From positions 48 to 64,047 of the forward strand of contig JAUHWW010000002.1 in assembly GCA_030427365.1 (NCBI GenBank): 64,000 nt of DNA. The letters run 5' to 3'. The notes under the pieces were generated by a model. The model was not told the DNA's origin, did not search any database, and worked only from the letters and a program-made list of their open reading frames with translations. How positions within the stretch are numbered: position 1 is the first letter of the stretch; every line of letters starts with the position of its first letter. The position numbers and the translations under genes are program-made. This document shows, in pieces, positions 36,808 through 43,222 of this stretch. The stretch is from a bacterium. GTDB lineage: Bacteria; Patescibacteriota; Saccharimonadia; Saccharimonadales; SZUA-47.

Positions 36808-37674
36808 TTACCCTCGACTTTTTGGTACAGCCTTCACAGTTTTTTTCTTACTTTCGAGCCAGAGGCTTTCGTCGACATCGACTTTCTTGCCAGCAGGCAG
36901 GGTTTTTGCAGCTACCGCTAGACGCTCGATTGCTTGCCTGTCCAGATGTACTGCGCCGCGCGAAACAAGCCACGTGCGCATAATTTCTCGCTGAACTGGC
37001 CATGAAAAATGCAGCAACGGCCAGCGCGGCAACTCATCACTCTCCGGCACGACATACTCAAGCAGCCCATCGACTTCAAAATATATGTCCTCAATCCTTT
37101 TTCGTGCAGCCAACAGATCATGACGCTTTGTTTCAAGCTTTGGCATGACATGATGGCGAACATAATTACGTAGATAATCATCGGACTCGTTGCTCGGATC
37201 TTCGCGCCACGTTAGGCTATTTTCATGCGCGTACTCGATTAAAGCGGATTTCGTTACCTGCAACAGCGGCCGAAGGATATCGTTAGTATTCCGCAAACTA
37301 ACCAACCCTCGTGGCCCTGTCCCGCGCAAGATATTAATAATCATCGTTTCTAAAACATCATCTTGATGATGCGCCGTAATAATGCGGTCAGCTTGATACT
37401 TCTCCATAATCTGGTGCAGAAACTCGTAGCGCTTTTCGCGCGCAAGGGCCTCGCTGGTATTCTCACCAAGCTTCCCCTCTTCTGCCTCAAAGGCTAATTG
37501 CAAGTTTTTTGCAATTTGCTCAACAAACTCCCTGTCTTTGGTTGAATCAGGACGCATGCCGTGGTCGTAGTGCGCTACAACGTAACGAACGTTTTCAGGC
37601 TTCCTCGCAACCAATTTGTGCAGCAAAGCAACTGAATCCACTCCGCCACTGACTGCGACAATAAACTTCTTCAT
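36808..37674 (-). CDS. tilS: tRNA(Ile)-lysidine synthase TilS
   Basis: PP-loop SGGVDS near the N-terminus. Start taken at MKKFIVAVSGG. Confidence 0.9.
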   Translation of the reverse strand: MKKFIVAVSGGVDSVALLHKLVARKPENVRYVVAHYDHGMRPDSTKDREFVEQIAKNLQLAFEAEEGKLGENTSEALAREKRYEFLHQIMEKYQADRIITAHHQDDVLETMIINILRGTGPRGLVSLRNTNDILRPLLQVTKSALIEYAHENSLTWREDPSNESDDYLRNYVRHHVMPKLETKRHDLLAARKRIEDIYFEVDGLLEYVVPESDELPRWPLLHFSWPVQREIMRTWLVSRGAVHLDRQAIERLAVAAKTLPAGKKVDVDESLWLESKKKTVKAVPKSRG

Positions 37675-37690
37675 GTACACTTTATAGTAG

Positions 37691-38314: not shown

Positions 38315-38749
38315 AGTACACGGGGCCATCAGCAAAACCTCATGATAGCGGAGTCGCCGTCGGTATTGTCGTAATCCAGCACGGCAAGCTGTTACTCATG
38401 AAGCGAACAGGCGGTAGCACAGGAGAAGGAACCTGGGCGATACCTGGTGGTGCGGTAGATTTCATGGAAGACCCTGAAGACGCCGCAGCGAGAGAGCTTG
38501 CAGAGGAAACCGGCCTCAAGGCGCAGTCATTCCAGATGCTCGGGTACACAAACGACCAGCACATTAAAGAAAAGTTGCACTACATTGGCTTCCGACTCTT
38601 TTACTGGCGAGCCAAAAATTATGGAGCCCCACAAAGCAACCGAAATAGGATGGTTCGATATCAGTGAGTTACCTTCACCACTATATCGACCAACAGAAAT
38701 AAAGTTAGCGGATCCTAATGTGTTGCGGTTTATAAAGGAAAAGTCATGA
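38311..38749 (+). pseudogene. NUDIX hydrolase interrupted by a frameshift
   Basis: The Nudix box GGAVDFMEDPEDAAARELAEETGL is in the frame of ORF 38248-38667. The conserved C-terminal part (GEPKIMEPHKATEIGWFDISELP) is in the frame of ORF 38498-38749. The switch is near the T-run at about 38598-38604. Total length is 439 nt, which is not divisible by 3. Confidence 0.7.
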
Positions 38750-39306
38750 AACATCTCTATTTCGTTCGTCACGGTCAAGCTGTAAATAACTTAAAGAATA
38801 ATGAACTCGTTGGCGGCCACTTCGATGCTCCCCTGACTGAAAAAGGGATAACACAAGCAAGGGATGTTGCCAGTGAAATCGTAAACTCAGGGTTAACGTT
38901 CGATGTGATACTGAGCTCACCACTTCAGAGAGCACATCACACTGCAAAAATAATCGCAGAATCCATTAGCTTCCCCAAAAGTAACATCGAGTTGCTTGAC
39001 ATTCTGAAAGAACGTGATTTTGGCGAACTGGCTGGCAAACCATTCGAAGAAGCGCTTGGCATGACAATGAGCGAATATCTAGCAAACCCACTTTCTGCGG
39101 ATAGCATCGAAGGTGTGGAAACATTGGCAGAGTTACATAATAGAGCAGGAAAGATAGTTCAGATAGTAAGAGAAAGGCCTGAGGAATCAGTGCTGATAGT
39201 GGCACACGGGGCGCTTGGTAGGTCCATAAAAAAGAACATTGAAGGTGTGCCTTACGACAAAGAAGTAGAAAAGATACCAAACGCTAAGCTCATAAAGCTT
39301 ATCTAG
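38746..39306 (+). CDS. histidine phosphatase (phosphoglycerate mutase-like) family protein
   Basis: 186 aa. RHGQ catalytic motif at the N-terminus. ATGA overlap with the upstream gene. Confidence 0.85.
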   Translation: MKHLYFVRHGQAVNNLKNNELVGGHFDAPLTEKGITQARDVASEIVNSGLTFDVILSSPLQRAHHTAKIIAESISFPKSNIELLDILKERDFGELAGKPFEEALGMTMSEYLANPLSADSIEGVETLAELHNRAGKIVQIVRERPEESVLIVAHGALGRSIKKNIEGVPYDKEVEKIPNAKLIKLI

Positions 39307-39330
39307 AGAATGCAATTAATCGTTACAATG

Positions 39331-39354
39331 AAAAAAGACCCACAGATGTGAGTC
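39331..39354. terminator. bidirectional intrinsic terminator between the phosphatase gene and the tRNA
   Basis: GACCCACA-GA-TGTGAGTC stem flanked by an A-run and a T-run. Confidence 0.65.
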
Positions 39355-39362
39355 ATTTTTCT

Positions 39363-39439
39363 TGGTAGCAGGAGCCAGGATTGAACTGGCGACCTCAGGC
39401 TTATGAGTCCTGCGCTCTAACCGACTGAGCTATCCTGCC
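39363..39439 (-). tRNA. tRNA-CAU, elongator type (probably Met), CCA encoded
   Basis: 77-nt cloverleaf: GGCAGGA/TCCTGCT acceptor, GCTC/GAGC D stem, CTCATAA loop, GCCAG-TTCAATC-CTGGC T arm. Confidence 0.92.
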
Positions 39440-39503
39440 ATATGTTGAACGTGAGCTTGATTTTATCAAATTGACATCTGTTTTGCTAGTATCGGCACAA
39501 TTA

Positions 39504-39551
39504 AAAACTTCTTTGGGAGAGGACTGACCCTTACATTCCCAAAGAAGTTTT
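39504..39551 (-). terminator. strong hairpin, likely minus-strand intrinsic terminator
   Basis: Perfect 15-bp stem AAAACTTCTTTGGGA/TCCCAAAGAAGTTTT with an 18-nt loop. On the minus strand it is followed by TTTTTAATT. Confidence 0.5.
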
Positions 39552-39980
39552 GTGGTATCTATTCAGCTGATTGATAGATGTATTGGTCGGCGCTTGTTCA
39601 CGCGTCGAATAGTTTGTCGTAGATCTTTACAAGAAAGCTCTTCGAATCTGATCGTTCGTAACTCATGTGGGTTGTTTGCCCTGCTCGTTTTCCTTTTTAT
39701 GCGAGGGAAAAGGAACTAAAAGCTACTCCTTTCGCTGATATTTGTTTTTGTTATGTCTAAAGCGAAAACTAATTTTGGCTTTGCTTTAGTGTTTTTGTTT
39801 TTGCTTACGCTTGGACTAGTATCGCATAAACACATTCTGAAAAACAACTAGTTTTATGCACATTTTTCAGAACTGCTGTCGAACTGATTGTTCGCAGCTC
39901 ATTTTGTTGGGTTGCGAGCAATTCTATCGGCAGATAAAATTACTCGTTCTCTCCAAAATGGCTGTGCTTGGGTGAGAGGA

Positions 39981-40010
39981 GATGCGCTATCTCCTCTCAC
40001 TTGCATATAG
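39981..40010. other. perfect 12-bp hairpin just downstream of the microprotein stop
   Basis: GTGAGAGGAGAT-GCGCT-ATCTCCTCTCAC. No clear U-tract on either strand. Confidence 0.5.
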
Positions 40011-40018
40011 CTGGGTGC

Positions 40019-40177
40019 CTAACAAAAGGCACATTCGTCGCCCTGCTTCTTCTCTTCCATTTTCTTGAGAATCGCAGCGGCTTCGTCGGCCTGGCTTCCG
40101 CCAGACGATTTCTTGCTTGATTTGCTTGACGACTTTGTTGCTTTGTCGTCTTTCTTTGATCCTAGGCCAAAAACCAT
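40019..40177 (-). CDS. 52-aa Lys/Ser-rich microprotein ending in CxxC
   Basis: Hand-translated MVFGLGSKKDDKATKSSSKSSKKSSGGSQADEAAAILKKMEEKKQGDECAFC. AAGGA RBS 8 nt upstream. Driven by the consensus promoter at 40257-40285. Below the ORF track cutoff. Confidence 0.5.
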   Translation of the reverse strand: MVFGLGSKKDDKATKSSSKSSKKSSGGSQADEAAAILKKMEEKKQGDECAFC

Positions 40178-40256
40178 GATGGGATCCTTTCTCGCAGTTT
40201 TATTTTATATTGTTTGTTTTGTTGAAACTTTGTTTGTTTTATTCAACAATAGCTAC

Positions 40257-40285
40257 ATTATAGCTTATGCTTTTAATTTTGTCAA
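40257..40285 (-). promoter_or_regulatory. consensus sigma70-type promoter
   Basis: Minus strand reads TTGACA, a 17-nt spacer (AAATTAAAAGCATAAGC), then TATAAT. Lies 13 nt after the ATPase stop. Confidence 0.65.
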
Positions 40286-40297
40286 TAGTATTTTTAT

Positions 40298-43222
40298 TTA
40301 TGCTTTTCTGGGTTGGTTCTCGAGACCGACTGTGCGATCCAGAATAGGGTTGATGAGCTTCATCATGACAAACAGTGCAACGGAACCAATCGCCATAAAG
40401 ACCCAGTCGTGAGCAGATAGCGGTCCAACTTCGAAATAATCTGCAATAGCAGGTACATACAAAACTGCCAACTGCAGCGCAACTGAAATAATCATTGCGA
40501 CGGTGAGCATCGGATTGGCAAACCACTTTATCTTATAGTCAGTGCGGATATCGACAAGTCGTACGAGCTCATACACGACCATGGCGGTGAATGCTGCGGA
40601 GACAGCGGCCAGCTGACTCTCATGGTGTACGTTGTACCAGTACTGAAGCAGCATCGCAACTGTCATCAGCGCACCGAAAACGAATATTTCTGTCCACACT
40701 CGCTTGGTGAGAATCGCTTCTTGGAATCGATTTGGCTTGGCTTTGAGCACGTCGCGGCGAGCTGGATCACTACCAAGCGCGATCGCTGGCAAGCCATCGG
40801 TCACAATGTTAATGAATAGTAGCTGCGCTGCGGTAAGAAGCAGGTTGTTAAAGAACAAGATGCCGAAGAGAATGACAAGAACCTCGGCGATATTACAGCT
40901 AATGAGGAAGTTGACGAACTTGCGGACGTTATCGAATATGCCGCGCCCCTCCTCTATTGCGTTAATAATTGTCACGAACTTGTCATCAAGCAAAATGAGA
41001 TCTGCCGCTTCTTTGGCAGCGTCAGTACCTGTTATCCCCATCGCGATGCCAATATCTGCGGCCTTGATTGCCGGTGCATCATTCACGCCGTCACCTGTCA
41101 TCGCAACTTGATGGCCGTGCTTCTTCAAAGCTTTCACGATGCGGATCTTGTGCTCCGGATTAACGCGGGCATAGACAGATATTTCTTCTACCTTTTGCTC
41201 AAACTCCTTTTGGCTCATAGCTTCAAGTTCGTGGCCGCTGATAGCCTCGCCTTGGATACCAATTTCCTTTGCCACCGCTTTGGCCGTCTCAATATAGTCG
41301 CCGGTAATCATAACAACGCGCATACCTGCCTCAGATTGCACCTGATGAATCACCTGCACCACTTCTTCGCGCGGTGGATCCATCATCGCTTGCAAACCAA
41401 TGAACACAAGATCTTTTTCTATCTGTTTTTCACCTGACGGCTGCGCTTTTACTTCTTTGTAGGCAAAGCCAAGCACACGCAAAGCCTGCGCGGCTAAAGC
41501 TTTATTCTGCTCAAGGATGGCTTGCTTATCCTGTGCTGATAGTTTTACCTTCTTCCCGTTTGCATCAAGCATGTGGCTGCTGCGATCAAGACAAGCTTCG
41601 ACAGAACCCTTACTCGCGACAATGAACCCGTCCTTTGTGTTGTGCACGGTACTCATAAATTTACGGTCACTCGTAAAGGGCACTTCATCGACACGCTTAT
41701 TTTCTTTCTGAGCGTGCTCATACATAAGCTGCGCTTTGCCTGCACTGACCAGTAGAGCCGCTTCGGTTGGATCGCCAAGTGCTTGATCATCTTTCAGGCG
41801 GGCGTTGTTACACAGCGCCCCCACAAGTAGTAGTTGCTCGTGTGCTTTACTGAGTTTGGCCTTTTTGCCGTCAGACGTGAATTCTCCTTGCAGCCCATAT
41901 CCGCCGCCGCTCACGTCTACCTGCTTGCCGCCGGCAACAATTGAGCGAACTGTCATTTCACCGCGCGTTAAGGTGCCGGTCTTATCCGAGCAGATGACAT
42001 CAGTTGAGCCCAGTGCTTCGACCGCGCTTAGACGTCGCACTAACCCGTTCTTTGCCGCCATACGGCGAGCGCCGAGCGCCAGAGAGATACGCACCACAAA
42101 GGCTAAGCCCTCCGGTATCGCGGCCACCGCTAAGGCAACTGCAGCGGTAAAGGCAAAAATAAGTCGCTGCAACATATCTTTGTCACGCGCTTCGTCCACG
42201 AGGAACACGACAATGACAAAAACGACAAGGCAGATGACGAGAATCATCAGACCAAGTTTTTTACCGAGGTCATCAAGCTTCTTCTGCATCGGTGTCTGCT
42301 CAGTTTCGACGTCGTTCACGAGGCTGGCGATTTTACCGAGTTCTGTGGTCTGAGCCGTTTCTACCACCACACCCTCGGCAGTTCCTTGGGTTGCAAACGT
42401 ACCAGCAAACGCCATATTTTTCTGATCACCCAGAGCGGCATCTTTCTCAACTAAAGTGTCCTGCTTGCTTACCGGCAAGCTTTCGCCGGTCAAGCTAGCT
42501 TCGTTCACTTGCAGGTTATGCACCGTAAGCAAACGCATATCAGCAGGAACTTTTTGTCCTTCTTCTAGAATGACAATGTCACCAGGGACAATTTGCGCGG
42601 CGTCAATTTCTACTAGTTTGCCACCTCGACGCACGGTTGCTTTTTGACCAACTAATTTCTTTAGTGCTTCAACGGTTTTTTCAGCTTTGTACTCGTTAAA
42701 GAAACCAATCAACGCGATAGCGAAGACGATAGCAAAAATGAGCAATGCTTCTTGCGCACCTTCACCTGATTCAGCCTGCGTTTCCGTGCTGTTAATGACT
42801 GACTCACACGCAATATTTAACTTTGCTGCTTGGGCCGCTTCACTCTCAGACAGCTCTAGGTCAAAACATATTTTCTCAACGAGACCACATGAATTTGTTT
42901 CTTCACATACAGGGGCTGCATCCCCCTCTCCCACCAACCCAACCGCGTAGGAAACAACAGCTGCAACCAGCAAAATAACTATCAATACATCCTTGAATTG
43001 CCCTAAAAATAGCGTGAGGGGATTAATTTTCTTACCAGCCTCAAGCTTGTTCTCGCCATACTGACTCAGGCGTTTTTCTGCCTCACTATTAGATAGCCCC
43101 TGCGACTGTTCAACATGCTGCTCTTTGAGCACATCTTCAGCGTGTTTCGTAAACCAAATATTCACAAGTTGTTGTCCACCTTTTCCATACATGTTATATT
43201 TCTTTCTAGACATAAGCAACAT
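40298..43222 (-). CDS. P-type (P2, Ca2+/cation-type) ATPase
   Basis: 974 aa. DKTGTLT phosphorylation site, [22 protein letters not shown]. Carries an unusual insertion of about 60 aa between TM1 and TM2. Confidence 0.93.

What the first reader, a model, noticed from the sequence alone, without database searches (positions are those of the whole stretch)
39440..40297. Consensus promoter driving a 52-aa Lys/Ser-rich CxxC microprotein, followed by about 470 nt of hairpin-rich noncoding DNA ending in a strong terminator
A perfect TTGACA-17-TATAAT promoter (minus strand, 40285-40257) sits 13 nt after the P-type ATPase stop. It precedes an unannotated 52-aa ORF (40177-40019) with an AAGGA RBS. The protein is MVFGLGSKKDDKATKSSSKSSKKSSGGSQADEAAAILKKMEEKKQGDECAFC, with a basic Ser/Lys-rich N-terminus and a C-terminal CAFC.

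A perfect 12-bp hairpin without a U-tract follows at 39981-40010. After it comes an unusually long noncoding stretch for this genome, 39552-39980. That stretch contains interleaved inverted repeats with pseudoknot topology. GCATAAA at 39824-39830 pairs with TTTATGC at 39853-39859. TTCTGAAAAA at 39835-39844 pairs with TTTTTCAGAA at 39863-39872. It ends at a 15-bp perfect hairpin plus T5 (39551-39504) just before the tRNA. This could be a highly expressed microprotein with a long structured 3' UTR, or a separate ncRNA. The CxxC next to a cation ATPase hints at a metal-related role.
Basis: partly seen in the sequence, partly recalled or inferred. Interest (0 to 1): 0.55.

Follow-up and report, generated by a model that had tools for sequence, protein, structure and literature searches.

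The report
Two microprotein genes behind a calcium-pump gene
Downstream of a calcium-pump-like gene, a small-genome bacterium of the Saccharibacteria group carries one strongly promoted, hairpin-rich transcription unit that encodes two conserved tiny proteins (52 and 22 residues), and the 52-residue one accompanies that pump gene across its bacterial order.

Summary
The sequence features are real; the reading needs correction. One hairpin lies about 10 nt off.

The "470 nt of noncoding DNA" is not all noncoding. It holds a second conserved gene, ORF2 (22 aa, window 39666-39598). ORF2 is present in 18 of 18 related loci, with pN/pS 0.33. It also holds a conserved RNA hairpin with covariation support, element 3 (39960-39900).

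ORF1 (52 aa, ending C-x-F-C) is a real protein: pN/pS is 0.15, and 62 cluster representatives were found, all but one small. It matches no Pfam, NCBIfam or PDB entry.

ORF1 tracks the upstream ATPase, which is a Ca-type P2A pump and not a heavy-metal pump. In one sample of 201 genomes of the order, 48 have the pump and 35 have ORF1. Of those 35, 34 also have the pump. Four more divergent ORF1 copies lie directly behind pumps.

ORF2 and element 3 are an add-on found in one family only.

Best reading: a stabilised two-microprotein mRNA whose first product is a soluble companion of the pump. No expression data could be obtained. The function is inferred.

The parts
40298..43222 (-). Context gene: 974-aa P-type ATPase, class P2A (Ca-type). 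It ends 12 nt before the -35 box.
   Evidence: Pfam finds E1-E2_ATPase and Cation_ATPase_N/C. The best NCBIfam matches are PMR1-type and SERCA-type Ca ATPases, both below their cut-offs; heavy-metal models score far lower. AIPEGL is invariant in 14 aligned orthologues.
40257..40297 (-). Promoter: an A/T-rich stretch, -35 TTGACA (40285-40280), a 17-nt spacer and -10 TATAAT (40262-40257).
   Evidence: It scores 12 of 12 and is single-copy in the own genome. TTGACA and AAAGCATAAGCTATAAT are invariant in 17 genomes of family f1. Other families carry a related promoter, TTGACAAnTAAGCAAAAGCGGTATATAAT, before ORF1.
40219..40249 (-). 5'-terminal stem-loop of the transcript, followed by an A/CA-rich leader. 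The start site is inferred, not mapped.
   Evidence: The stem is in the MFE fold. An equivalent GUUGAU..AUCAAC hairpin occurs in 16 of 17 related leaders. The stem hardly varies, so covariation evidence is weak.
40019..40177 (-). ORF1, a 52-aa microprotein. It has MVFGLG at the start, a Lys/Ser-rich disordered linker, one helix (residues 28-48), and ends in C-A-F-C. The SD sequence AAAGGA is at 40190-40185.
   Evidence: For the last 24 codons pN/pS is 0.15, and third-position entropy is 1.05 against 0.23 and 0.21 (12 sequences). All three antisense frames are closed in 12 of 12. AlphaFold2 gives a low-confidence model, pLDDT 61. There is no membrane-spanning segment: the highest 15-residue Kyte-Doolittle window is at most 0.58 in 37 members.
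39972..40000 (-). Perfect 12-bp stem-loop (GUGAGAGGAGAU / AUCUCCUCUCAC) with no U tract, just after ORF1.
   Evidence: (I3). Similar GAGAGG../..CCUCUC stems follow ORF1 in G001, G007, G011 and G081. A role as an RNA-stability or processing barrier is inferred.
39900..39960 (-). Element 3, a conserved long hairpin. It has an outer helix UUUUGG/AUCAAAA, a GG/CC step, an internal loop (AA opposite CAA), an inner helix CGAG../..CUCG, and a variable tip.
   Evidence: In 14 sequences, 87.3% of cells are paired, against 33-48% when the partners are slid. Ten of 21 pairs show changes on both sides, which 0 of 500 shuffles reach. Covariance model R1 hits the window at 56.3 bits, E 3.8e-13. It also hits G011 and G012, which were not in the seed. 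The element is single-copy. In a sample of 141 genomes of the order it was found in the own genome and in 2 of 3 other f1 genomes, and in 0 of 137 from other families.
39667..39899 (-). Variable hairpin-rich spacer.
   Evidence: Repeats are listed and the hairpins appear in the MFE. The stretch is poorly alignable even within the genus, and the repeats were not recovered in G002 or G001. The distance from element 3 to ORF2 ranges from about 60 to about 400 nt in relatives.
39598..39666 (-). ORF2, a 22-aa microprotein MSYERSDSKSFLVKIYDKLFDA (stop TGA at 39600-39598).
   Evidence: It is present in 18 of 18 f1 loci examined. It is always 22-23 codons long. The start is ATG, except GTG in G005; in G012 an in-frame ATG directly precedes a TTG. 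pN/pS is 0.33 and third-position entropy is 1.11 against 0.65 and 0.52. The other sense frames carry stops in 18 and 16 of 18. A profile search finds it single-copy in the own genome and 5 of 6 other f1 genomes; outside f1 only two borderline hits (E about 0.01) turned up among 194 genomes.
39556..39579 (-). Small stem-loop between ORF2 and the terminator (AUCUAU..AUAGAU).
   Evidence: Sequence. G002 has AUCUAC..GUAGAU, one compensatory pair. It is absent in G001, so support is weak.
39499..39551 (-). Intrinsic terminator: a 15-bp stem, an inner hairpin or bulge carrying the conserved unpaired UCAGUC, then a U run.
   Evidence: (I2). The AACUUCU/AGAAGUU base and the GGUCAGUC motif recur across genera. 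G004 and G007 have plain terminators without the motif.
39363..39439 (-). Context gene: tRNA with anticodon CAT, read here as a separate unit. A TGnTAAAAT-like extended -10 lies at about 39468-39460.
   Evidence: The TGATAAAAT / TGTTAGAAT / TGTTAAAAT box is conserved in the three congeneric genomes. In other genera the tRNA lies farther away or on the other strand.

Best explanation
This is one strongly promoted transcription unit of about 750 nt. It starts about 7 nt after the -10 box near 40250 and ends at the terminator at about 39500. It is an mRNA for two lineage-restricted cytosolic microproteins, buffered by stable hairpins.

Shown:
- Both ORFs are under purifying selection as proteins.
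- The promoter, the 5' hairpin, element 3 and the terminator are conserved.
- ORF1 plus its promoter is the older module and is present in at least 20 families of the order.
- ORF1 sits directly behind, and shares its patchy distribution with, a P2A (SERCA/PMR1-like, Ca-type) ATPase.
- Element 3 plus ORF2 is an add-on found in one family (f1) only. It keeps the promoter even in genera that have lost ORF1, and in some of them the pump as well.

Inferred:
- ORF1 is a soluble accessory factor of that pump, about 0.5 likely. It would have a basic disordered arm, one amphipathic helix and a free C-terminal C-x-F-C knuckle. The knuckle would bind a metal ion (most likely Zn, shared with a second CxxC) or act as a redox-sensitive dithiol, about 0.35 likely.
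- The 5' stem-loop and the stem after ORF1 would protect the mRNA.
- Element 3 would be a protein-binding or processing site that controls ORF2.
- ORF2 would be a short helix-forming peptide that binds a protein partner.
For: Coding:
- ORF1 has pN/pS 0.15 (66 pairs). Its linker has in-frame indels and its ends are invariant.
- 62 cluster representatives were found at E<=1e-3; all but one 706-aa partial hit are 32-84 aa, and in the 34 sequences read the motif sits at the C-terminus in all but P0013.
- ORF2 has pN/pS 0.33, is open in 18 of 18 loci, and tolerates alternative start codons.

Promoter: 12 of 12, invariant with its spacer in 17 genomes, single-copy.

Structure: z = -13.6. Element 3 covariation is and the model hits are.

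Link to the pump, using the same 201-genome sample of the order:
- The pump is in 48 genomes (this tally includes the unpublished G056).
- ORF1 is in 35. Both are in 34, ORF1 alone in 1 (G205), the pump alone in 14.
- Of the 34 with both, 31 have ORF1 on the same contig and strand downstream of the pump, with gaps of 35-1510 nt. The other 3 are split over contigs.
- Of 11 'pump-only' genomes inspected, 4 carry a divergent small ORF ending C-x-F-C right behind the pump.
- The upstream neighbour is the pump in 11 of 12 loci from other families. The downstream neighbour varies: NUDIX, methyltransferases on either strand, DivIC-like, or unknown.
- No terminator separates the pump's stop from ORF1's promoter.
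- In a 401-genome sample of the phylum, ORF1 was found in only 3 genomes, all of the same order.
Against: - There are no expression data: no RNA run was listed.
- Kin are not independent, and gene order in these genomes is generally conserved. Part of the co-occurrence could therefore be plain linkage.
- ORF1 has its own strong promoter, and the pump exists without it in G016 and G022 and in G103, G117, G128 and G177. It is therefore not an obligate subunit.
- Cysteine ligands do not suit Ca2+, so the chemistry of any link is unclear.
- A lone CxxC cannot form a metal site by itself.
- The AlphaFold2 model is low-confidence, pLDDT 61.
- ORF2's amphipathicity is unremarkable: the hydrophobic moment is 0.17-0.53 and exceeds the shuffles (p<0.05) in only 2 of 16 sequences.
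- The Shine-Dalgarno-like sequences before ORF2 are weak and distant.
- The 5' hairpin stem hardly varies, so structure and sequence conservation cannot be told apart there.
Confidence: 0.6

Rival explanations
1. Linkage only. ORF1 is an abundant small basic protein, for example one that associates with nucleic acid or the ribosome or responds to stress. It has nothing to do with the pump, sits next to it by descent, and is lost together with it in the same deletions.
For: ORF1 has its own strong promoter. The N-terminal half is Lys-rich and disordered. Synteny around the locus is generally conserved in the family. The pump occurs without ORF1 in at least 6 genomes.
Against: Both genes have a patchy distribution over about 20 families, yet ORF1 occurs without the pump in only 1 of 35 genomes, while the reverse occurs in up to 10. 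The downstream neighbour is not conserved while the upstream pump is.
Confidence: 0.3
2. Dual-function regulatory RNA, in the manner of RNAIII/hld or SgrS/SgrT (recalled examples). The structured transcript itself would regulate other genes by base-pairing or by titrating a protein. Element 3 and the unpaired UCAGUC in the terminator would be the active sites, and the ORFs would be secondary.
For: The fold is very stable, z = -13.6. Element 3 has covariation support. The unpaired GGUCAGUC is conserved in the 3' hairpin across genera. A/CA-rich single-stranded linkers separate the hairpins.
Against: Most of the RNA between the conserved blocks varies in length and sequence. The best-conserved blocks are the two ORFs, and their substitutions follow a coding pattern. 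There is no Rfam match. A search for the complement of the loop motif in the own genome gave nothing telling. G004 and G007 lack the UCAGUC motif.
Confidence: 0.15
3. One reading: one microprotein gene with a long structured 3' UTR, or a separate non-coding RNA in 39552-39980 that includes a pseudoknot.
For: Hairpins and the interleaved repeats are present. Element 3 is a conserved RNA structure.
Against: The best-conserved block of the stretch is a 22-codon ORF with a coding substitution pattern, present in 18 of 18 loci. The scan found no other promoter-like site on this strand within the stretch. The pseudoknot repeats are not recovered in congeners. Rfam gives nothing.
Confidence: 0.05
4. 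ORF1 is a precursor peptide whose invariant C-terminal C-x-F-C is modified after translation, as in a RiPP, a peptide-derived cofactor, or a lipid or prenyl anchor of the CaaX kind.
For: The motif is invariant and sits at the extreme C-terminus, preceded by a variable linker. It combines a polybasic stretch with a terminal Cys motif.
Against: Pfam named no modifying enzyme in the window's flanking ORFs; the methyltransferases among the first downstream ORFs of 10 other-family loci are not a conserved neighbour. The genomes are only 0.6-1.3 Mb. The only constant neighbour is the pump.
Confidence: 0.05
5. ORF2 is a leader peptide that controls read-through of the terminator into downstream genes (attenuation).
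For: It is a short ORF placed 45-130 nt upstream of a strong terminator.
Against: The downstream genes differ and are often on the other strand. The tRNA appears to have its own promoter. An alternative pairing between ORF2 and the terminator arm seen in the window is not kept in other genera (sequences). The peptide sequence itself is conserved over its whole length.
Confidence: 0.03

Closest known systems
Small-protein partners of P-type ATPases: phospholamban, sarcolipin, myoregulin and DWORF for SERCA, KdpF for KdpFABC, MgtS for MgtA. Read as passages of bioRxiv 10.1101/2024.02.28.582502.
   Same: A very small protein tied to a P-type ATPase; here it is encoded directly behind a SERCA/PMR1-like pump and shares its distribution among genomes. 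Its length of 52 aa is in the same range.
   Different: From recall, the known partners are single-pass membrane helices that bind the pump inside the membrane. ORF1 has no hydrophobic segment, is predicted to be half disordered, ends in C-x-F-C and has its own strong promoter. Binding is not shown.
Intermolecular CxxC metal sites: the Rad50 zinc hook and the CD4/CD8-Lck zinc clasp (recalled, not tested here).
   Same: A lone CxxC, often CPxC, sits next to a helix. It can form a four-ligand site only together with a second chain.
   Different: There is no coiled coil or known partner. The motif is at the very C-terminus, and half of the family has CAFC rather than CPFC. Metal binding is untested.
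Dual-function RNAs that encode a small peptide: S. aureus RNAIII/delta-haemolysin, E. coli SgrS/SgrT, B. subtilis SR1/SR1P (recalled).
   Same: A strongly transcribed, hairpin-rich RNA of several hundred nucleotides carrying a peptide ORF of 20-50 codons.
   Different: No regulatory target or base-pairing region is known here. There are two ORFs, and the conservation is mainly in the coding parts.
Glutaredoxin-type CPYC/CPFC redox motif (recalled).
   Same: The C-P-F-C tetrapeptide occurs in about half of the family.
   Different: There is no thioredoxin fold. The motif follows a helix instead of starting one. There is no match to any Pfam family.

Membership tests
Any Pfam-A or NCBIfam family, or any solved structure (ORF1, ORF2) | A significant profile match | tested here: not met
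   ORF1 matches 0 Pfam families and 0 NCBIfam families. The best PDB E-values are 2.8 for the ORF1 profile and 0.59 for the ORF2 profile, which is chance level. The ESM Atlas gave no usable hit. ORF2 is too short for most libraries.
Any Rfam family (the RNA between promoter and terminator) | A covariance-model match at or near the gathering score | tested here: not met
   In 38500-41000 only the tRNA passes. The other matches (Teg49 at 18.8 bits against a cut-off of 186, CrcZ at 11 against 95) are noise.
Heavy-metal (P1B) ATPase, as the basis for a 'metal-related' partner | P1B signature: best match to heavy-metal models and a CPx motif in the transport helix | tested here: not met
   The best models are PMR1-type (648 bits) and SERCA-type (615 bits) Ca ATPases. 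The heavy-metal subfamily scores 253 bits, below its cut-off. Cation_ATPase_N and Cation_ATPase_C domains are present. The invariant motif is AIPEGL, not CPx.
P2A Ca-type ATPase (the upstream gene) | A score above the curated equivalog cut-off | tested here: inconclusive
   The best hits are of this class but fall below the equivalog cut-offs (648 against 798, 615 against 703). The general P-type model passes. Ion specificity is therefore inferred.
Membrane micropeptide regulators of P-type ATPases (regulins, KdpF, MgtS) | A single transmembrane helix | tested here: not met
   The highest 15-residue Kyte-Doolittle mean is at most 0.58 in 37 family members. The only predicted helix (residues 28-48) is charged.
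Membrane micropeptide regulators of P-type ATPases (regulins, KdpF, MgtS) | Physical binding to the pump | not testable with these tools
   This needs co-purification or an activity assay.
Intrinsic (Rho-independent) terminator | A G+C-containing stem directly followed by a U run at the end of the unit | tested here: met
   A 15-bp perfect stem at 39504-39551 is followed by a T run. Equivalent hairpins with U runs follow ORF2 in every related locus that was printed. The consensus scan missed it because the loop is longer than 8 nt.
Leader-peptide attenuator | Conserved alternative pairing, and a regulated gene downstream on the same strand | tested here: not met
   The downstream genes vary in identity and strand. 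The candidate anti-terminator pairing is not conserved (sequences).
Signal recognition particle RNA (considered because none is detectable in the genome) | A match to the SRP RNA models, and an Ffh M domain present to bind the RNA | tested here: not met
   RF00169 and RF01854 give no hit in the own genome. PF02978 gives none. The region shows no SRP match.

The most novel reading that the evidence does not exclude
ORF1 founds a class of soluble, non-membrane microprotein partners of bacterial SERCA-like Ca pumps. A disordered basic arm and a helix would dock on the pump or the membrane surface. The free C-terminal C-x-F-C would act as a redox or thiophilic-metal switch that couples pump activity to the cell's state. 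In one family the same promoter was later recruited to drive a second peptide (ORF2) behind a dedicated RNA control hairpin.
Probability: 0.25. Interest if true: 0.75.

Novelty: new variant of a known kind. Interest (0 to 1): 0.55.

Why it matters
Small proteins are routinely missed in genome annotation. ORF2, at 22 codons, falls below the size that I recall gene callers using as a cut-off, and ORF1 carries no family name. In these very small genomes (0.6-1.3 Mb), genes that are kept under a strong promoter are likely to matter.

If ORF1 acts on the pump, it would be a soluble counterpart of the membrane micropeptides that tune P-type ATPases in animals and enterobacteria. It would also give a handle on ion homeostasis in Saccharibacteria, whose physiology is largely unknown. 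Element 3 is a candidate new cis-regulatory RNA. The locus also shows how one promoter can be re-used when the gene behind it is lost.

Tried and rejected
- RNA evidence: the look-up of sequencing runs with window:36000-44000, kind rna, listed no RNA holder.
- Complex prediction of the pump (residues 30-973, alignment A7) with ORF1 (alignment A2) gave no verdict: score 0.00 against a mark of 0.32, and the controls were not run. This is no evidence either way.
- SRP RNA idea: rejected, because the genome has no detectable Ffh M domain or SRP RNA. Motif regexes gave only sites that read as coding sequence.
- 6S RNA: RF00013 was not found in the genome, and no 6S match appeared in the region.
- ORF2 as a PSM- or delta-toxin-like membrane-active peptide: mean hydrophobicity is negative in 15 of 16 sequences, and the hydrophobic moment exceeds the shuffles in only 2 of 16. 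This is kept only as a remote possibility.
- Target search for the UCAGUC loop: the complement occurs 8 times in the genome, with no telling location.
- RNAalifold on the promoter/leader alignment found only a trivial 3-bp stem, because the 3' arm was out of register. Per-sequence folds were used instead.
- Plus-strand ORFs overlapping the region (39552-39719, 39968-40120, 40065-40412) are rejected. Antisense frames carry stops in 12 of 12 sequences for ORF1, and in 18, 18 and 9 of 18 for ORF2.
- Cluster look-up of 10 divergent ORF1 relatives returned no names.
- Literature: five searches returned no paper describing these peptides or this RNA in their listings. Only listings were seen, except for passages of two papers. 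Supplements were not seen.
Full report
**What the window is.** The window lies on contig C23 of a 0.935-Mb genome rated 99.35% complete. A relative of ORF1 (60% identity) is named by its source as a Candidatus Saccharimonadales bacterium. I therefore take the organism to be a member of that order (Saccharibacteria, TM7). Genomes and families are cited below by handle (G..., f...).

**Checking the observation.**
- The minus strand reads TTGACA, 17 nt, TATAAT at 40285-40257, a 12 of 12 match.
- The upstream 974-aa ORF stops at 40300-40298, 12 nt before the -35 box.
- The perfect 12-bp hairpin is at 39972-40000, about 10 nt from the stated place.
- The two interleaved repeats and the 15-bp terminator stem are exactly as stated.
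- RNA 40250-39500 folds at -224 kcal/mol, against -157.6 (sd 4.9) for 20 shuffles, z = -13.6. 'Hairpin-rich' is therefore an understatement.
- Two qualifications apply. Perfect consensus promoters are common in this genome: 22 perfect sites and 20 with one mismatch. And the 'noncoding' stretch contains a gene (see the section on ORF2 below).

**The promoter and leader are conserved.**
- A DNA search of the own genome plus 40 relatives found matches in 19 of 41 (18 of 24 in the own family f1). That tally includes the unpublished G009, which I did not use further.
- In 17 f1 genomes from at least 15 genera, TTGACA and the 17 bases AAAGCATAAGCTATAAT are invariant.
- The site is single-copy in the own genome.
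- A 5' stem-loop (GUUGAU..AUCAAC) followed by an A/CA-rich leader is present in 16 of 17. Its stem barely varies, so it carries little covariation evidence.
- Similar A/CA-rich leaders follow other strong promoters in this genome, so the leader type is general.

**ORF1 is a real protein family.**
- A word-index search gave 11 homologues of 49-76 aa.
- A profile search of 1.84 billion representatives gave 62 at E<=1e-3. All are 32-84 aa except one 706-aa partial hit.
- The 34 sequences I read share a variable Lys-rich linker with in-frame indels, a helix of the type DEAxxxLxKMxxK, and C-[A/P/M/V]-F-C. The motif ends the protein in all but P0013, which runs on.
- Over the last 24 codons in 12 f1 genomes, pN/pS is 0.15 and third-position entropy is 1.05 against 0.23 and 0.21. 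Antisense frames are closed in 12 of 12.
- AlphaFold2 predicts disorder for residues 1-27 and one helix for 28-48, at low confidence (pLDDT 61).
- No member has a hydrophobic stretch compatible with a membrane helix.
- Pfam, NCBIfam, PDB and the ESM Atlas give nothing.
- The family was found in 35 of 201 genomes of the order, one copy each. In a 401-genome sample of the phylum it was found in 3, all of the same order.

**ORF2 is the second gene.**
- An alignment of the three congeneric genomes showed a block at 39666-39598 that starts with ATG, ends with a stop and changes mostly at third positions.
- The 22-aa ORF (MSYERSDSKSFLVKIYDKLFDA in the window) is present in 18 of 18 f1 loci examined.
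- It is always 22-23 codons long. G005 starts with GTG, and G012 has ATG followed by TTG.
- pN/pS is 0.33 over 153 pairs, and third-position entropy is 1.11 against 0.65 and 0.52. The other two sense frames carry stops in 18 and 16 of 18.
- A profile of it finds one copy in the own genome and in 5 of 6 other f1 genomes of the order sample. Outside f1 it gives only two borderline hits at E about 0.01.
- It is hydrophilic overall with a hydrophobic C-terminal half. Its helical moment is not exceptional.

**Conserved RNA elements.**
- Element 3 (39960-39900) is a long hairpin with a conserved internal loop and a tip of variable length.
  - On 14 sequences, 87.3% of cells pair (33-48% when slid), and 10 of 21 pairs have changes on both sides, which 0 of 500 shuffles reach.
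  - A covariance model built from these sequences finds the element in two further f1 genomes that were not in the seed (E 9e-10 and 3e-7).
  - The model finds it once per genome. In a 141-genome sample of the order the matches were the own genome and 2 of 3 other f1 genomes, with 0 of 137 elsewhere.
  - It always lies between the promoter (or ORF1) and ORF2.
- The stem after ORF1 (GAGAGG../..CCUCUC) recurs in several genera and in another family.
- The terminator has a conserved base and, in most genera, an unpaired GGUCAGUC. G004 and G007 lack that motif.
- Rfam matches nothing but the tRNA.

**Architecture and history.**
- In f1 the order is pump, promoter, 5' hairpin, [ORF1, stem], element 3, ORF2, terminator.
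- ORF1 is present in 12 of the 17 f1 loci that have the promoter. It is missing in G022, G016, G005, G006 and G020, where ORF2 follows the promoter after 270-460 nt.
- A genome-wide search confirms that G005, G006 and G016 have no ORF1 anywhere.
- In other families ORF1 has a related promoter (TTGACAAnTAAGCAAAAGCGGTATATAAT). Its stop is often followed directly by what reads as a stem plus T run (by eye; not scanned), with no ORF2.
- The promoter plus ORF1 is therefore the old module, and element 3 plus ORF2 is a family-specific extension that can survive the loss of ORF1.

**The pump.**
- The upstream gene has E1-E2_ATPase, Cation_ATPase_N and Cation_ATPase_C domains.
- It scores best against PMR1-type and SERCA-type Ca ATPases, below their equivalog cut-offs. 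Heavy-metal models score far lower.
- AIPEGL is invariant in 14 orthologues.
- It is a P2A, Ca-type pump, not a heavy-metal pump.

**Co-occurrence.** The counts below come from the same 201-genome sample of the order.
- The pump (E<=1e-150) is in 48 genomes (this tally includes the unpublished G056, not read further). ORF1 is in 35.
- 34 genomes have both, 1 has ORF1 only (G205), 14 have the pump only, and 152 have neither.
- In G205 the pump appears to be missing between ORF1 and a homologue of the gene that flanks the pump in the window.
- Of the 34 with both, 31 have ORF1 downstream on the same strand and contig, with 35-1510 nt between the match ends; 27 of them are within about 420 nt. 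The other 3 are split over contigs.
- I fetched the DNA behind the pump in 11 of the 14 'pump-only' genomes. I did not fetch G016 (already seen), G056 (unpublished) or G098 (contig end).
  - 4 of the 11 (G162, G122, G111, G062) carry a divergent small ORF ending C-x-F-C there.
  - G048's contig ends 95 nt after the pump.
  - G145 and G188 have only 39-41% identical pumps.
- In 12 loci from other families the upstream neighbour is the pump in 11. The first downstream gene varies: NUDIX, methyltransferases on either strand, DivIC-like, or unknown.
- Kin are not independent and I ran no tree-aware test. Still, the asymmetry is what an accessory factor would show: ORF1 almost never occurs without the pump, while the pump sometimes occurs without ORF1.

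**Interpretation.**
- I read the locus as a stabilised mRNA for two microproteins, not as a microprotein plus an ncRNA.
- ORF1 is most likely a soluble companion of the Ca-type pump (about 0.5). Its terminal C-x-F-C is most likely a half metal site or a redox dithiol (about 0.35). Neither is shown.
- Small proteins that tune P-type ATPases are known (SERCA regulins, KdpF, MgtS; passages read). From recall these are membrane helices, which ORF1 is not.
- ORF2 and element 3 remain without a function. I infer a peptide that binds a protein partner, and a cis-acting control or processing hairpin.
- Rival readings: plain linkage, a dual-function regulatory RNA, a modified precursor peptide, and an attenuator. 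Each is scored in its own section.

**What is missing.** There are no expression data. The complex prediction gave no verdict. No paper on these elements turned up in five searches.

Noticed in passing
whole genome G000 and the order sample: The SRP pathway is not detectable. Small SRP RNA (RF00169) was found in 0 of 41 genomes of the order, including the own genome. Large SRP RNA was not found in the own genome. The Ffh M domain (PF02978) was not found in the own genome. The SRP54-type GTPase (PF00448) gave only two hits of about 20 bits in the own genome, and 0 of 61 genomes of the order had a hit at E<=1e-10, while all 14 control genomes did. The SRP genes mentioned in a TM7x transcriptome paper carry a locus-tag prefix (APY09) that I take to be the host's (passages).
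   Followed up: partly
window 39363-39439 (-) and 36808-37680 (-): The tRNA with anticodon CAT beside the locus lies 1.7 kb from a PP-loop gene (Pfam ATP_bind_3) that I take to be TilS. This neighbourhood is kept in relatives. The tRNA may be the lysidine-modified tRNA-Ile2 rather than a tRNA-Met. The window has three CAT tRNAs.
   Followed up: no
genome G000, 42 sites listed: There are 22 perfect and 20 one-mismatch TTGACA-N16-18-TATAAT promoters in 0.935 Mb, most with TGn before the -10 box. Many have an ATG 7-10 nt after the -10 box, which suggests leaderless mRNAs. Others have a short stem plus an AAAACAAAAA leader.
   Followed up: partly
L035-L044 (G197, G171, G099, G140, G050, G087, G208, G122, G068, G093): In other families a near-identical promoter drives unrelated genes, often apparently leaderless. 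Its spacer core is GCTTATGC, the reverse complement of GCATAAGC. Two of the genes have a type IV pilin-like N-terminus. The spacer may be a general feature of promoters in this order.
   Followed up: partly
L034 (G178:C1:608800-611900), promoter at +560 of the reversed locus: In a genome of family f29, a promoter with one mismatch and a 5' hairpin drive a 29-aa ORF (MSLLKALAYEFLPTSDKSILSVDRDIAKL) followed by a terminator. A tRNA(CAT) lies 1.1 kb downstream. The peptide loosely resembles ORF2 but did not reach E 0.01 with the ORF2 profile.
   Followed up: partly
L054, L059, L061, L028 (G033, G155, G081, G011), downstream of ORF1: Hairpins followed by C-rich tails of the type CUGCUCACCACCCAAAU recur, up to three times in G155. 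They resemble the 3' half of element 3. Model R1 did not score them.
   Followed up: partly
loci of G005, G011, G015, G016 and G022 near ORF2: The palindrome CTGCAG recurs a few tens of nucleotides before or after ORF2 in several genera.
   Followed up: no
window 39677-39691 (-) and genome C7 near 21734 (-): A 15-base string (GAAAACGAGCAGGGC) just upstream of ORF2 is shared with a site on contig C7 that reads like coding sequence. This is probably chance.
   Followed up: no
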